Below are positions 15,001 through 18,000 of a stretch of 33,994 nt of DNA, piece after piece (position 1 is the stretch's first letter; every line of letters begins with the position of its first letter). The DNA comes from a virus. Taxonomy: Duplodnaviria > Heunggongvirae > Uroviricota > Caudoviricetes. The stretch spans positions 1-33,994 of IMG/VR virus record IMGVR_UViG_2802429242_000009, one strand, 5' to 3'. A program made the position numbers.

Positions 15001-18000
15001 TCCGTGCTGATGTTTCTGCTGGTCGTAAGCGCCTGCAAGTCGCCGCCACCTGTGCAAAGTCAACGACCGGAGCCAGCGGCATGGGCGATGGAGAAAGCCC
15101 AGGACTTACAGCAGATGCTGAACTCAATTATTACCGTCTCCGAAGTGGAATCGACAGGATAACCGCACAGGTTAACTACCTGCAGGAGTACATCAGGACG
15201 CAATGCCTTCGATGATAGCGATAATTTTACTCATCATCCTTCACATCTGGCTCTGTAGACAGGGTGGTACTCACTTCTGGAGCGAATCCAGATTAAACAT
15301 CTCATTGCTGATGCTTGAAGTTAAGCATCTGGCGCGCGGTAAGGGGCTGCGTTGAGATAAGAGCCAGTCATAACAAATACCAGGATTTAGCCTCGCATTT
15401 GCGGGGCTTTTTTACATCTGCAGTAAACCGCGCATCGCAGCGCGTAACAATCCCGAGTCTTTCAGAAAGCTGAGCCTGAGAACTGCCGTATATGGTGGCG
15501 ACCATCTCGGGGCGGCTTTTCTGTGCGAACAGGCTCATCTTTCTAAAAGGTAAGACGCTATGAATATCGTTCCACTAAATTACAAAGGCGAACCTATCCG
15601 CTTCAATACTGATGGCTGGATTAATGCCACTGATATTGCAAAACGTTTCGGGAAGCGTCTGGATCACTGGTTGTCCAACGCTGAAACTCTCGAATACGTT
15701 AGAGCTCTGGATGAGGTTTATTCAGGTGAACCATCGAAAATTCTACATACCCGTGATTCCGGGTATGTAAAAACAAGCAAGGCACGAAAGGACAGGGGCG
15801 GCGGAACATGGCTGCATCCAAAGTTATCAGTTGCCTTTGCAAGATGGTGCGATCCGAAATTCTCCGTATGGTGCGACCTGCACATTGATAGTCTGCTTCG
15901 CGGTGAACTGACTGAGCAGCAGAAATATGAGCAAGCATGTCGCATTCGCGATGACCGGAAATCAAAAGCCAGCAATGGGGCAAGAGAGATGGCTCGCTGG
16001 CGATGGGATAAGCCGGTTATTGAAGCAAATGTTGAGTACTGGCGCGAGCAACTGCAGTTGACTCTCGATATCGCGTGCTGATGGCAAACGCAAAACTGCG
16101 TTATCGGAAAAATCAAAGCATTACGAGAACTGAGCAACGGCTATCCATTACAAAGCCCATTTACGGGTGGGCTTGATAATGAAACCGGAATTTATTCTGG
16201 GCCACCAGTTAACGGCAGTACCACGAAACAACCCAAGCCAGTAAGTGGGGAAATAACACCGGCAGCCACTGAAAGATGAACCTCCTGCCTTATGGCAAAA
16301 AAGATTCTTTGTGGTGGCGGACTGATGGAAAGACATCCTAATTTCAGCCAAACATTGAAGGAGTTGTTATGTCAGCAGAAGGTTTCAATAACCCATCAAA
16401 ATTTCGGGATGAGTGGGATAGCAGCGTAAAGAGTAAGTGATGCCATCACAAAAGCCATTCCCTACAGAGTGGCTTTGATAATGGCTTATACCCTGCACGG
16501 GATAACTTAACTGATATCCCCACAAGCGGATAAAGAGGCTCTCAATGTCCGACATCTACATCATCAAACTGAATACGAACGACGGCGGCGAGTAAACGGG
16601 CAAGATGTCACGACGTCAGCCTGAGCTGGTTAATGGCTTTGTGCCGCTGGCGACCTAGACGGGAGTGGGGGGGGGGCGTACTTCGCTCCTGCTGATGTCA
16701 AGTGCGTGTAGTTCACGCCAATATCGGTAGGTGACGATAGAACTGTGGAATAGACATGGCATTATCCTGGACGTGTAAATGTTCAATCGGAAATGCCATG
16801 CTGGTCAGTTGGTTGCTTAGACCTTCTTATAAGAGATAGATCTTCCGAATGGTGGATATATAGAAGTTGAATCTTTAATTTCATAAGTGGCCACTACATT
16901 TCCCGCAGCGTCCAACTCACGGTAAAGGTATTCATCGGTATCCTGACCTTTTCGAGCTCCTTTCCAGTTAGAAGAGACAAGCTCCAGTGTATGGTCATCT
17001 GGAATGCCGATTTTCTGTTTGTATTCATCACTCATGTGAAATCCTTAAAGGTAATTTATGGCACTCACCGACAAACAAGAAATGTTCTGTCGCGAGTACC
17101 TCATCGATTTAAACGCCACGCAAGCGGCTATTCGGGCGGGGTACAGCGCAAAGACAGCTAACCGTACCGCATCCGAAAACCTGTCAAAACCTGACATCAA
17201 GTTAAGAATCGCCGAACTGAAAGCGCAACGCAATGATCTTGTTGGTATTAATGCAGAATATGTACTTAATCGCCTTCTTGAAATCGACCAGATGGATGTG
17301 CTCGACATTCTCCTGCAAAACGGTGAGTTAAAGCCCATTAAAGACTGGCCTAAAGTATGGCGCACAACGCTATCAGGAATGGATGTCGTGGAGATGGTAT
17401 CCGCAGATAGTTCCGCACTTCTGAAGAAAATCAAATGGCCAGATAAGGTCAAAAACCTCGAACTTCTTGGAAAGCATGTTTCCGTTCAGGCATTTAAAGA
17501 ACAAGCTTCTCATGAGCTAACAGGCAAAGACGGCGGCGCAATTCAGATTGAAACATCACCGATGAGCACTCTATTCGGAAAATGACCTCGATTAATCCTA
17601 TCTTTGAATCGTTCATTGAGGCGCATCGCTACAAAGTCGCCAAAGGCGGTCGAGGTAGCGGCAAATCATGGGCAATTGCGAGGCTGCTTGTTGAAGCGGC
17701 GCGTCGGCAGCCTGTGCGTATTCTCTGCGCTCGTGAACTGCAAAACAGTATCAGCGATTCGGTAATCCGGTTGCTTGAAGACACCATCGAGCGGGAAGGG
17801 TATTCGGCTGAGTTTGAAATTCAGCGTTCAATGATTCGTCATCTCGGAACAAATGCTGAGTTCATGTTCTACGGCATCAAAAACAACCCGACGAAGATTA
17901 AATCGCTCGAAGGCATTGATATCTGCTGGGTGGAAGAAGCGGAAGCGGTAACGAAGGAATCATGGGATATCCTGATACCAACCATCCGCAAGCCGTTTTC

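What the first reader, a model, noticed from the sequence alone, without database searches (positions are those of the whole stretch)
15560..16081. KilA-N domain gene inserted between the lysis and packaging modules
This DNA-binding-domain protein has its own ribosome-binding site and follows an intrinsic terminator after Rz. It is not a structural or lysis function. KilA-N domains occur in antirepressors and in some prophage-encoded abortive-infection proteins, though this one is shorter and lacks an obvious effector domain.
Basis: partly seen in the sequence, partly recalled or inferred. Interest (0 to 1): 0.45.

Follow-up and report, generated by a model that had tools for sequence, protein, structure and literature searches.

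The report
KilA-N gene cassette with structured leader
The KilA-N gene is a real but already-known accessory phage gene, sitting in a slot where related phages carry interchangeable DNA-binding genes. The unexpected part is a conserved folded RNA just upstream that hides the gene's ribosome-binding site and matches no catalogued RNA family.

Summary

The interpretation needs correcting in three ways:
- **Second domain.** It is not a bare KilA-N. Residues ~116-172 form a helical hairpin homologous to ORF11CD3, the architecture of Pseudomonas phage D3 Orf11.
- **Known gene.** It is 100% identical to a gene in coliphage EC.P3 and 99% identical in SPN3UB and SE1.
- **Insertion into a reused slot.** A 768-bp insertion (15378-16145) is flanked by a 9-bp direct repeat, relative to an otherwise about 92-96% identical phage. 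About 73% of phages with this Rz type carry a Bro-network gene there (Rha, KilA-N or T5orf172), including P22 rha.

I found no promoter, no defence-family match and no effector domain, so an Abi role is unsupported.

All these genes share a ~125-nt leader (15436-15562) that pairs the SD into a long hairpin. An alternative 6-bp helix could free the SD. Both are supported by compensatory changes, and no Rfam family matches. The most likely function is a late-expressed, translationally gated, Rha-like DNA-binding regulator. Its target is unknown.

The parts
14766..15215 (+). Rz-like spanin, the last gene of the lysis cassette (context)
   Evidence: phrog_13 E 3.9e-72
15369..15377 (.). Left copy of the 9-bp direct repeat (CATAACAAA) at the cassette boundary
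   Evidence: BLASTN against cassette-free phage L109. L109 4605-4613 aligns to both flanks of the window insertion.
15390..15413 (+). Intrinsic terminator T1: stem GCCUCGC/GCGGGGC, loop AUUU, then six U
   Evidence: Terminator scan. Conserved at the left edge of the cassette in all variants. 95% of cells paired in alignment A2.
15429..15444 (+). Small conserved hairpin H1 (CGCGC-AUCGCA-GCGCG) between the terminator and the main leader
   Evidence: 91.5% of cells paired, and 2 pairs with changes on both sides. In Emek-type leaders it is followed by a U-run.
15452..15457 (+). 5' arm (CCCGAG) of the alternative helix Pk, directly abutting the anti-SD
   Evidence: A perfect Watson-Crick stem of 5 bp or more (6 bp or more in 35 of 36) with the 3' end of the apical loop exists in all 36 variants. 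In 34 of them it is the Pk helix in its usual position, and it uses about a dozen different arm sequences.
15458..15550 (+). Long SD-sequestering hairpin of five helices. P1 15458-62:15546-50 pairs the anti-SD with the SD. P2 is 15464-69:15539-44, P3 15471-78:15530-37, P4 15479-82:15519-22 and P5 15485-88:15513-16. The apical loop is 15489-15512 and contains the Pk 3' arm CUCGGG at 15506-11.
   Evidence: - MFE of the window sequence, and independently of 8 of 11 sequence classes.
- Inverted repeat I1.
- Covariance model R1 gives one hit in the window, 15436-15565, 137.5 bits.
- 24 of 27 pairs show compensatory changes; 83.6% of cells are paired against 32-56% in slid controls; 0 of 500 shuffles reach the observed values.
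- An independent genome set gives 91.7% against 53% or less.
15492..15563 (+). Possible 23-codon upstream ORF. It starts at an AUG in the apical loop, and its UGA stop overlaps the KilA-N AUG (AUGA).
   Evidence: Read from the sequence and compared across variants. A loop start codon is present in most variants but not all. There is no amino-acid conservation, and the frame differs between variants. Its status is uncertain.
15560..16081 (+). KilA-N / ORF11CD3 protein gene (173 aa). The KilA-N domain is residues 7-114. The C-terminal helical hairpin is residues 116-172.
16146..16154 (.). Right copy of the 9-bp direct repeat (CATTACAAA). It is followed by a hairpin and the GATAATG boundary element (through 16181).
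   Evidence: repeat family D3.
17058..17585 (+). Terminase small subunit, the first packaging gene (context)
   Evidence: phrog_51 E 2.2e-52

Best explanation
Window 15369-16154 is a discrete accessory cassette inserted in the late operon of a P22-like lambdoid phage. It lies between Rz and the small terminase gene. Reading left to right it contains:
1. an intrinsic terminator;
2. a ~125-nt structured 5' leader;
3. a gene for a two-domain Bro-network protein, with an N-terminal KilA-N (APSES-like) DNA-binding domain and a C-terminal ORF11CD3 helical hairpin, probably a dimerisation or partner-binding module.

**Shown:** The cassette is the KilA-N counterpart of the P22/phi80 rha cassette. It has the same slot, the same leader and the same C-terminal domain, with a swapped DNA-binding domain.

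**Inferred, transcription:** No promoter-like site was found between the terminator and the ATG. The gene is therefore most likely transcribed only by Q-modified RNA polymerase reading through from the late promoter, that is, late in lytic growth and not from the prophage.

**Shown by covariation; consequence inferred, translation:** Translation is gated by the leader. At equilibrium the SD is buried in a long hairpin (OFF). An alternative 6-bp helix forms first during transcription. That helix cannot coexist with the SD-pairing helices, so it would leave the SD free (ON). This would give either a short, limited burst of synthesis or a factor-dependent switch.

**Inferred by analogy, role:** The protein is a dosage-sensitive DNA-binding regulator acting on host, phage or co-resident element DNA. 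It is not needed for virion assembly or lysis. P22 and phi80 Rha are reported to block phage growth when IHF-dependent control is lost.
For: **Insertion with direct repeats**
- L109 aligns to window 14700-15377 and 16146-16663. The 9 bp at L109 4605-4613 are shared by both segments.

**Slot survey**
- 80 loci were chosen only for a 92-98% identical Rz.
- 58 have the full leader, and 57 of those have an ORF of 140-242 aa starting at its end. The exception, L146, carries a truncated Rha ORF further downstream.
- The classes are Rha-ORF11CD3, KilA-N-ORF11CD3, KilA-N-P63C and T5orf172.

**Survey by leader pattern alone**
- In 118 of 118 leader matches in IMG/VR the downstream ORF is a Bro-network-type DNA-binding gene (Rha, KilA-N, T5orf172, Rha-ANT) or, in one case, an HNH endonuclease.
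- The same pattern occurs in 41 species genomes, nearly all Enterobacterales.

**Leader structure**
- 24 of 27 pairs show compensatory changes. The covariation score is 0.41 against 0.13 or less in slid controls. 0 of 500 shuffles reach the observed values.
- A plain MAFFT alignment gives the same direction, as does an independent genome set.
- Many G-U pairs mean the fold works only on the mRNA-sense strand.

**Alternative helix Pk**
- A perfect stem is present in every variant, with about a dozen different arm sequences. Mean stem length is 6.4 for own partners against 4.4 for cross-class partners.
- Pk is in the MFE of the nascent RNA up to 15512. The full-length MFE is the long hairpin, -40.5 against -26.1 kcal/mol.

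**Protein**
- 49% identity to D3 Orf11, which is KilA-N plus ORF11CD3.

**Expression signals and Rha phenotype**
- No promoter-like site in 15414-15559.
- The Rha phenotype and its IHF control are as summarised in PMC4936722.
Against: - No expression data were available. Late-only transcription rests on a simple sigma-70 consensus scan, which could miss a weak or non-canonical promoter.
- The ON/OFF reading of the two helices is inferred from sterics (0-nt and 1-nt linkers) and nearest-neighbour energies. A compact tertiary fold, or a purely kinetic folding role for Pk, is not excluded.
- The ORF11CD3 match of this protein alone is below Pfam's cut-off (16.5 against 25 bits).
- No DNA target, partner or phenotype is known for this protein. 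The Rha analogy covers the slot, the leader and the C-terminal domain, not the DNA-binding domain.
- At least one natural variant (L299) has mismatched Pk arms.
- The cmalign-based alignments lean towards the model structure.
Confidence: 0.6

Rival explanations
1. Prophage-expressed defence gene. The KilA-N protein would be made in the lysogen and would exclude or abort superinfecting phages.
For: - KilA-N domains occur in some candidate defence systems. There is a weak PADLOC hit to PDC-S22, E 3.4e-6, 24 bits, best stretch residues 75-104.
- The slot is an accessory hotspot. Other phages carry a Tad2-like counter-defence gene there.
Against: - No promoter-like site lies between the terminator and the ATG, and a terminator sits immediately upstream.
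- The SD is sequestered.
- There is no effector domain, only a helical hairpin.
- The PADLOC hit covers only about 30 residues of the generic KilA-N fold.
- The gene is co-oriented with the late operon and embedded in it.
Confidence: 0.1
2. Antirepressor or cross-talk factor. Made late, the protein would inactivate repressors or activate promoters of co-resident prophages or satellites (PICIs), coupling their induction to this phage's lytic cycle.
For: - Bro-network proteins include proven antirepressors.
- The same leader precedes a Rha-ANT (KilAC) protein in L054.
- BTP1 rha is annotated as an anti-repressor.
- Bro-network genes are abundant in PICI/helper systems (PMC10111431).
Against: - This protein has no ANT/KilAC domain.
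- Annotation labels are untested.
- No repressor partner has been identified.
- This idea overlaps with the best explanation rather than excluding it.
Confidence: 0.2
3. Selfish mobile cassette. The terminator-leader-gene unit would spread between phage genomes, by homing-like or boundary-sequence recombination, with little benefit to the phage. The leader would exist mainly to limit the cassette's cost, as RBS-sequestering hairpins do for T4 homing-endonuclease genes.
For: - The indel is precise, with a 9-bp direct repeat.
- The same leader precedes T5orf172 (GIY-YIG-like) and HNH genes, which are typical homing-type genes.
- The cassette occurs next to many different Rz and terminase types.
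- There is a T4 precedent for RBS-hairpin control of free-standing endonuclease genes (PMC2988022).
Against: - KilA-N/ORF11CD3 has no nuclease domain.
- Strong purifying selection (dN/dS 0.02-0.17) and occupancy of about 73% of relatives suggest a benefit.
- The repeats could simply be recombination linkers.
Confidence: 0.15
4. The conserved stretch upstream of the gene acts as DNA rather than RNA. It would be an operator, an IHF site or a recombination boundary.
For: - IHF is reported to regulate rha (PMC4936722).
- The palindrome CTTTCAGAAAG lies in the stretch.
- Mosaic joints lie at hairpin-containing boundary repeats nearby.
Against: - Compensatory changes preserve pairing, not sequence.
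- Frequent G-U pairs make the fold specific to the sense strand.
- The 3' end of the hairpin is always the SD, at a fixed distance from the start codon.
- By eye I saw no WATCAANNNNTTR match in the leader; no pattern scan was run.
Confidence: 0.05

Closest known systems
P22 / phi80 Rha (P22 ORF201; Phage_pRha + ORF11CD3)
   Same: - Same slot, immediately after Rz and before the terminase genes.
- Same upstream terminator and the same leader family (BTP1 L004 2573-2708, 101 bits with model R1).
- Same C-terminal ORF11CD3 domain and similar size, 173 against 178 aa.
   Different: - The N-terminal DNA-binding domain is KilA-N, not the Rha winged helix.
- The IHF-dependent growth-inhibition phenotype is known only for Rha and was not tested for this protein.
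Pseudomonas phage D3 Orf11, the founding member of Pfam ORF11CD3
   Same: Full-length homologue with 49% identity over residues 2-171 and the same KilA-N + ORF11CD3 architecture. It is also an insertion within a late (head-tail) gene cluster.
   Different: It sits between head-tail adaptor genes, not after Rz. Its upstream region shows no resemblance to the enterobacterial leader. No function has been determined for it either.
Identical or near-identical annotated genes in coliphage EC.P3 (100%), Salmonella phages SPN3UB, SE1, SE22 and S9-5 (99.4%), and Emek, HK544 and ev099 (86%)
   Same: Same gene and same position after Rz, annotated as 'KilA-N domain protein', 'DNA-binding protein' or 'hypothetical protein'.
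   Different: None of these records annotates the leader. SPN3UB annotates a minus-strand ORF over it instead, which comparison shows is not conserved as coding sequence.
RBS-sequestering hairpins of T4 homing-endonuclease genes (I-TevI, segB, mobE)
   Same: An accessory DNA-binding gene embedded in a polycistronic phage transcript, with a consensus SD buried in a stable hairpin so that translation is restricted (PMC2988022).
   Different: - In T4 the hairpin is bypassed by a late promoter inside it. No internal promoter was found here.
- This leader has a second, mutually exclusive conserved helix.
- The leader is one homologous family, shared by many different genes and found in 41 species genomes, nearly all Enterobacterales.
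Fungal APSES DNA-binding domain (Mbp1, PDB 1bm8)
   Different: Only 17% identity. This is a fold-level relationship and says nothing about the target sequence or biological role.

Membership tests
KilA-N domain (Pfam PF04383) | Profile match above the curated cut-off | tested here: met
   85.5 bits against a cut-off of 23.8, E 2.8e-24, residues 7-114, covering profile positions 4-106 of 107
KilA-N domain (Pfam PF04383) | APSES-like alpha/beta DNA-binding fold | tested here: met
KilA-N domain (Pfam PF04383) | Sequence-specific DNA binding | not testable with these tools
   Needs EMSA, DAP-seq or ChIP-seq
ORF11CD3 domain (Pfam PF10549) | Profile match of the C-terminal ~54 residues | tested here: inconclusive
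   - Direct scan: 16.5 bits against a cut-off of 25, E 0.01, residues 122-169.
- Support by homology: 49% identity over the full length to D3 Orf11, which scores E 5.4e-10.
- The 99%-identical P0001 and most homologues carry PF10549 in the precomputed annotation.
- phrog_518 (Rha-like) matches residues 118-170 at E 2.3e-8.
Phage antirepressor (ANT/KilAC, PF03374; P22_AR) | Presence of the antirepressor C-terminal domain | tested here: not met
   No such Pfam match down to E = 1. The domain is detected in another leader-associated protein (L054, E 1.7e-27), so the search can find it.
Known anti-phage defence systems (PADLOC-DB 2.0) | Significant full-length match to a defence protein model | tested here: not met
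   Only PDC-S22 at 24 bits, best stretch residues 75-104 of the KilA-N fold
Moron (autonomously expressed insertion in a phage operon) | Present in some but not all otherwise collinear relatives | tested here: met
   768-bp insertion relative to L109. 22 of 80 relatives lack the full leader-gene unit.
Moron (autonomously expressed insertion in a phage operon) | Own promoter upstream and own terminator downstream | tested here: not met
   There is no promoter-like site in 15414-15559, and the only + strand terminator lies upstream of the gene. The scan is consensus-based, so a weak promoter is not excluded.
Rha/KilA 'post-Rz' leader RNA (defined here; not in Rfam) | SD paired with an upstream anti-SD at the base of a long hairpin, with covariation | tested here: met
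   Window hit of 137.5 bits. 24 of 27 pairs compensatory, 0 of 500 shuffles. MFE -40.5 kcal/mol.
Rha/KilA 'post-Rz' leader RNA (defined here; not in Rfam) | Alternative helix between the 5' flank and the apical loop | tested here: met
   CCCGAG 15452-57 / CUCGGG 15506-11. The helix is conserved by compensation in the other variants.
Any Rfam 15 family | Covariance-model match at or near the gathering score | tested here: not met
   Only two tRNAs pass gathering in the window. Within 15200-17100 at E <= 10 there are only chance-level hits, and none spans the leader.
Riboswitch (ligand-responsive leader) | Specific ligand binding that shifts the two folds | not testable with these tools
   Two mutually exclusive conserved helices and a partly conserved loop motif (GGCGAC) are compatible with this but do not show it.

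The most novel reading that the evidence does not exclude
The leader would be a genuine two-state RNA switch, dedicated to Bro-network genes of Enterobacterales phages. A cellular or phage signal (a small molecule, a protein such as the product itself or a host nucleoid protein, RNase III processing, or ribosomes initiating at the loop start codon) would stabilise the Pk fold and release the SD. Synthesis of these dosage-sensitive DNA-binding proteins would then be tied to a particular state of the infected cell. This would also explain the old observation that P22 and phi80 Rha become lethal to the phage when host control is lost.
Probability: 0.2. Interest if true: 0.75.

Novelty: new variant of a known kind. 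Interest (0 to 1): 0.5.

Why it matters
The gene itself adds little. It is one more copy of an annotated KilA-N/ORF11CD3 gene of unknown role.

What matters is the pattern around it:
- A single homologous, structured leader precedes dozens of different Rha, KilA-N, T5orf172 and HNH genes in the late operons of lambdoid phages, and occurs in prophages of 41 species genomes, nearly all Enterobacterales.
- The leader has two mutually exclusive helices, both maintained by compensatory mutation.
- It matches no Rfam 15 family, and my two targeted literature searches returned no description of it.

This gives a concrete experimental handle, through leader mutants and reporter fusions, on a protein class that is among the commonest and least understood in temperate phages.

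It also corrects annotation. P22-type rha is annotated from a GTG inside the leader, and SPN3UB carries a spurious antisense ORF over it.

Finally, it shows that the Rz-terminase interval is built from cassettes delimited by short hairpin repeats. Some of these cassettes carry counter-defence genes (Tad2-like).

Tried and rejected
- **Divergent minus-strand ORF 15368-15538 (56 aa).** It looked like a small HTH repressor partner and is annotated in SPN3UB as SPN3UB_0070. I rejected it. It has no Pfam or PHROG hit. Across variants the stretch has frame-shifting indels and loses the start codon. Its conservation is explained by the RNA structure on the other strand.
- **Truncation of the KilA-N gene.** The phrog_129 profile is 273 columns long, which raised the question. 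I rejected it. Homologues are 163-185 aa and align end to end.
- **Own promoter in the leader.** The consensus scan found none. My manual look at TATATG-like loop sequences found no -35 box at usable spacing and no T at the last -10 position.
- **RNAalifold on plain MAFFT alignments.** This produced a partly wrong consensus because of one-column shifts. A structure-aware realignment with a covariance model was needed.
- **Classical H-type pseudoknot with all helices coexisting.** I rejected this on linker lengths (0 nt and 1 nt), which is an inference and not a computation.
- **Conserved leader peptide.** The loop start codon is common but absent in about 10 variants. The frame and stop position vary, so a conserved peptide is unlikely. 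Coupling by translation of this uORF remains possible.
- **Literature.** Henthorn & Friedman 1995 on rha could not be retrieved. Two searches, one pairing KilA-N with RNA-motif/riboswitch/covariation terms and one pairing KilA-N/Rha with anti-phage defence terms, returned nothing relevant among the listed papers.
- **First boundary-repeat pattern search.** It failed because the pattern was mis-specified. The repeats were found by other means.
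Full report
**1. The observation**

- Pfam gives KilA-N over residues 7-114 at E 2.8e-24, far above the curated cut-off.
- PHROGs places the whole protein in phrog_129, 'transcriptional regulator'.
- An AAGG Shine-Dalgarno lies 9 nt upstream of the ATG.
- An intrinsic terminator (core stem GCCTCGC/GCGGGGC, then six T) lies at 15390-15413, 175 nt after the Rz stop.
- PHROGs confirms the context. The order is Q (13215-13703), two tRNAs, holin, endolysin, Rz (14766-15215), this gene, TerS (17058-17585), TerL and portal.
- The gene is under strong purifying selection. dN/dS is 0.02-0.17 against five homologues with dS of 0.6-1.8.
- It has 509 homologues at E <= 1e-3.

**2. 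What the protein is**

It is not a bare KilA-N domain. An AlphaFold2 model built on 54 homologues (mean pLDDT 89) shows two parts: an alpha/beta N-terminal domain, and two long antiparallel helices at 116-137 and 141-172.

The C-terminal hairpin corresponds to Pfam ORF11CD3.
- The direct match is sub-threshold (16.5 bits, E 0.01).
- The protein is 49% identical over residues 2-171 to Pseudomonas phage D3 Orf11. That protein names the family and scores ORF11CD3 at E 5.4e-10.
- The 99%-identical database homologue carries PF10549 in the precomputed annotation.

There is no ANT/KilAC, nuclease or other effector domain. The only PADLOC hit is a 24-bit match whose best stretch covers about 30 residues.

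**3. It is already in the databases**

The same protein is encoded 100% identically in coliphage EC.P3. It is 99.4% identical in Salmonella phages SPN3UB, SE1, SE22 and S9-5, and 86% identical in Emek, HK544 and ev099. In these records it is labelled 'KilA-N domain protein', 'DNA-binding protein' or 'hypothetical'. PGAP annotates it in many E. coli chromosomes. IMG/VR holds 326 close relatives.

**4. Is it 'inserted'?**

Yes, in a concrete sense. Phage contig L109 has the same Rz (96% nt) and the same TerS (96% nt). It aligns to window 14700-15377 and then directly to 16146-16663. The 9 bp at L109 4605-4613 are shared by both segments.

The window therefore carries 768 extra bases (15378-16145). 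They are bounded by CATAACAAA (15369-77) and CATTACAAA (16146-54). The inserted unit contains the terminator, the leader, the gene and a 64-nt tail.

Among 80 IMG/VR loci carrying a close relative of the KilA-N gene, it lies 200-350 nt after an Rz homologue wherever one was detected (most loci). The Rz types range from 43% to 97% identity, and the terminases differ.

**5. What occupies the slot in relatives**

I fetched 80 loci selected only for a 92-98% identical Rz.
- 58 contain the full conserved upstream stretch, and in 57 of those an ORF of 140-242 aa starts exactly at its end. The exception, L146, carries a truncated Rha ORF further downstream.
- By Pfam these ORFs are Rha-ORF11CD3 in several subtypes (including P22-type rha), KilA-N-ORF11CD3 (the Stx-phage 'kilA', only 27% identical to ours, and the window/Emek type), KilA-N-P63C (HK97 gp73), and T5orf172/MUG113 proteins.
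- The other 22 loci carry other content:
  - four (L114, L119, L129, L150) have a Tad2-like (Thoeris anti-defence) gene directly after the same terminator;
  - four have an 80-84-aa ORF of the class that Emek and BTP1 annotate as DUF2560 (I did not scan it);
  - one has TerS right after a truncated leader, and one has a 326-aa ORF after a truncated leader;
  - in seven no ORF of 70 aa or more was called within 700 nt;
  - the remaining five have other short ORFs.

So this particular gene is accessory, but the slot is filled in about 73% of relatives by a gene of the same functional class. The studied representative is P22/phi80 rha. In BTP1 the order is Rz, rha, pid (minus strand), orf80. Rha is reported to be detrimental to lytic growth when IHF, which regulates it, is absent (PMC4936722). 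I could not retrieve the primary paper.

**6. The conserved leader**

Aligning the region upstream of the ATG across variants showed two things. Conservation starts at the terminator and runs to the start codon. The minus-strand ORF annotated there in SPN3UB is broken by indels and loses its start codon in several variants.

The same stretch precedes BTP1/P22 rha, the Stx-phage kilA and, in diverged form, HK97 gp73. Rfam 15 has no match.

Independent MFE folds of 8 of 11 sequence classes give the same long hairpin, in which the SD pairs with an upstream anti-SD. In window coordinates the helices are:

| Helix | 5' arm | 3' arm |
|---|---|---|
| P1 | UCUUU 15458-62 | AAAGG 15546-50 |
| P2 | 15464-69 | 15539-44 |
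| P3 | 15471-78 | 15530-37 |
| P4 | 15479-82 | 15519-22 |
| P5 | 15485-88 | 15513-16 |

Three covariation tests agree:

| Alignment | Cells paired | Slid controls | Pairs with compensatory change | Shuffles reaching observed value |
|---|---|---|---|---|
| A2, plain MAFFT, 21 sequences | 84% | <=54% | 21 of 45 | 0 of 500 on four of five measures |
| A4, model-realigned, 57 distinct sequences | 83.6% | 32-56% | 24 of 27 (9-14 in slid) | 0 of 500 |
| A5, independent set from 41 genomes | 91.7% | <=53% | 15 of 27 | 0 of 500 |

- The A2 structure also included the terminator, H1 and Pk. On the fifth measure (further pair types) 7 of 500 shuffles reached the observed value.
- For A4 the covariation score is 0.41 against 0.13 or less in slid controls.
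- Abundant G-U pairs make the fold specific to the mRNA-sense strand.
- Caveat: the realigned alignments lean towards the model. The MAFFT-only test and the single-sequence folds do not.

**7. A second, mutually exclusive helix**

The six to eight bases immediately 5' of P1 (CCCGAG 15452-57) are complementary to the 3' end of the apical loop (CUCGGG 15506-11).
- A perfect Watson-Crick stem of 5 bp or more (6 bp or more in 35 of 36) exists in all 36 distinct variants. In 34 it is this helix in its usual position.
- The helix uses about a dozen different arm sequences, including CGAGAG/CUCUCG, CACAGAG/CUCUGUG, CCAAGAG/CUCUUGG, CACCGA/UCGGUG, CGUCGA/UCGACG and CCCCUAA/UUAGGGG.
- Mismatched partners from other classes give shorter stems, mean 4.4 against 6.4.
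- The genome set adds further arm pairs and one natural mismatch, L299.

The 5' arm abuts P1 with no linker, and the 3' arm abuts P5 with 1 nt. I therefore infer that this helix cannot coexist with P1/P2.

Folding of nascent transcripts places it in the MFE up to position 15512 (-17.9 kcal/mol). The complete leader prefers the long hairpin, -40.5 against -26.1 kcal/mol with the helix forced. The simplest reading is an early fold with the SD free, which relaxes to a fold with the SD closed unless something holds it open.

An AUG or GUG in the apical loop opens a short uORF in most variants. In the window it runs 15492-15563, and its stop overlaps the KilA-N start as AUGA. It is absent in about ten variants and is not conserved as a peptide. 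I leave translational coupling as an open possibility.

**8. The leader is specific to this gene class**

A pattern built from the leader alone found more than 120 IMG/VR contigs. In all 118 matches evaluated, the ORF after it is a Bro-network-type DNA-binding gene: at least 71 Rha variants, 21 KilA-N, 12 T5orf172, Rha-ANT, a further Rha-domain class, and one HNH endonuclease.

Extra copies detected by the model precede Rha-ANT, HNH_3 endonuclease-like and TerB-like genes. Where the surrounding genes could be placed, these copies lie in the late region: just upstream of the holin or between lysis and terminase.

The pattern occurs in 41 species-representative genomes. These include Pantoea, Rahnella, Providencia, Serratia, Erwinia, Brenneria, Buttiauxella, Enterobacter and Escherichia, plus a few MAGs of doubtful assignment. 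The window itself contains one copy.

**9. How it most likely works**

*Shown*
- The cassette anatomy and the indel.
- The two-domain protein.
- The leader fold with SD sequestration and the alternative helix.
- The association of the leader with Bro-network genes.

*Inferred*
- Transcription only by late, Q-antiterminated readthrough. The consensus scan found no promoter-like site between terminator and ATG. The terminator would block unmodified polymerase, and Q is upstream.
- Translation restricted by the leader.
- A protein that binds DNA through KilA-N and dimerises or binds a partner through the helical hairpin.
- A dosage-sensitive, non-essential regulatory role like that of Rha.

The closest mechanistic precedent for the leader logic is the RBS-sequestering hairpin of T4 homing-endonuclease genes (PMC2988022). 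There, however, an internal late promoter bypasses the hairpin, and no such promoter was found here.

*Rivals*
- A prophage-expressed defence or Abi gene, which I consider poorly supported.
- An antirepressor or cross-talk factor, which is compatible with the best explanation and untested.
- A selfish mobile cassette, which is partly compatible.
- A DNA-level element, which the covariation pattern contradicts.

**10. Verdict**

As a gene this is ordinary: a known, annotated member of the KilA-N/ORF11CD3 family in a known variable region. The Abi idea has no support.

The added value is the shared structured leader and the cassette architecture. The leader matches no Rfam 15 family, and my two targeted literature searches returned no description of it. 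I rate the gene as a new member of a known kind and the leader as a new variant of a known regulatory principle. Overall interest is moderate.

Noticed in passing
window 15436-15562 (+); also L004 2573-2708, L085 1369-1500, L086 1352-1482 and many other loci: A conserved ~125-nt structured leader sequesters the SD and has an alternative, mutually exclusive helix. It is shared by Rha, KilA-N, T5orf172, Rha-ANT and HNH genes in phages and prophages, and occurs in 41 species genomes that are nearly all Enterobacterales. No Rfam family matches it.
   Followed up: yes
window 15369-15413, 16146-16181 and 16444-16483: There are three copies of a boundary element: CA(T/C)NACAAA followed by a G+C-rich hairpin. 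The second and third end in GATAATG. Mosaic joints fall exactly at these elements. E. coli LWY24 (L168) has a 404-nt module with a 92-aa gene where the window has 16182-16440. L088 jumps from the terminator straight to 16441. They look like recombination linkers delimiting cassettes.
   Followed up: partly
L114, L119, L129, L150 (about 4660-5150): In phages with the same Rz and the same post-Rz terminator, the slot holds a 159-aa protein with a Tad2-like (Thoeris anti-defence 2) domain, E 1.4e-21. It has no structured leader. The Rz-terminase interval is therefore also a counter-defence hotspot.
   Followed up: partly
L004 (BTP1) 2634-3239; the same in P22-type rha loci L097, L130, L133, L136: The annotated GTG start of rha (ORF201) lies in the apical loop of the leader, in frame with the ATG 23 codons downstream (L004 position 2704). 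The ATG sits at the position used by all other leader-associated genes and is probably the main start, giving a 178-aa protein.
   Followed up: partly
window 15368-15538 (-); SPN3UB_0070 in L002 3821-3979: A 56-aa minus-strand ORF lies opposite the leader and is annotated as a hypothetical protein in SPN3UB. It is not conserved as coding sequence: there are frame-shifting indels and the start codon is lost in L008, L034, L054 and L055. It has no family hit and is probably a spurious call.
   Followed up: yes
window 15492-15563 (+): A 23-codon uORF starts at an AUG in the apical loop of the leader and stops at a UGA overlapping the KilA-N AUG (AUGA). A loop AUG, GUG or UUG with a stop between -15 and +3 occurs in most variants but not all. 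It may give translational coupling, or it may be chance.
   Followed up: partly
window 15203-15355 (+): A 50-aa hydrophobic ORF overlaps the end of Rz and matches phrog_11822 (unknown function) end to end at E 3.7e-36. EC.P3 annotates a CDS over the same stretch, and tblastn finds it conserved (90-96% aa) in about a dozen of the KilA-N loci.
   Followed up: no
window 16817-17035 (-): A 72-aa minus-strand ORF lies just upstream of TerS. PGAP annotates it as a hypothetical protein in E. coli LWY24 (WP_053903632.1). It has no Pfam or PHROG match and is absent from all 80 KilA-N loci.
   Followed up: no
L054 6510-7310 and 7838-8505; L156 2023-2633; L100 2252-2881; L136 144-693: Additional diverged copies of the leader precede a Rha-ANT antirepressor-type gene, HNH_3 endonuclease-like genes and a TerB-like gene. 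Some lie just upstream of the holin. One contig (L054) carries three leader-gene units in a row.
   Followed up: partly
window 13795-13950 (+): tRNA-Asn(GUU) and tRNA-Thr(UGU) lie between the Q gene and the holin, the same arrangement as in Salmonella phage BTP1.
   Followed up: no
window 16232-16267 (+): A weak, sub-threshold Rfam hit to Proteo-phage-1 RNA (19.8 bits against a gathering score of 42, E 1.3), in the gene-poor stretch after the KilA-N gene. It is probably chance.
   Followed up: no
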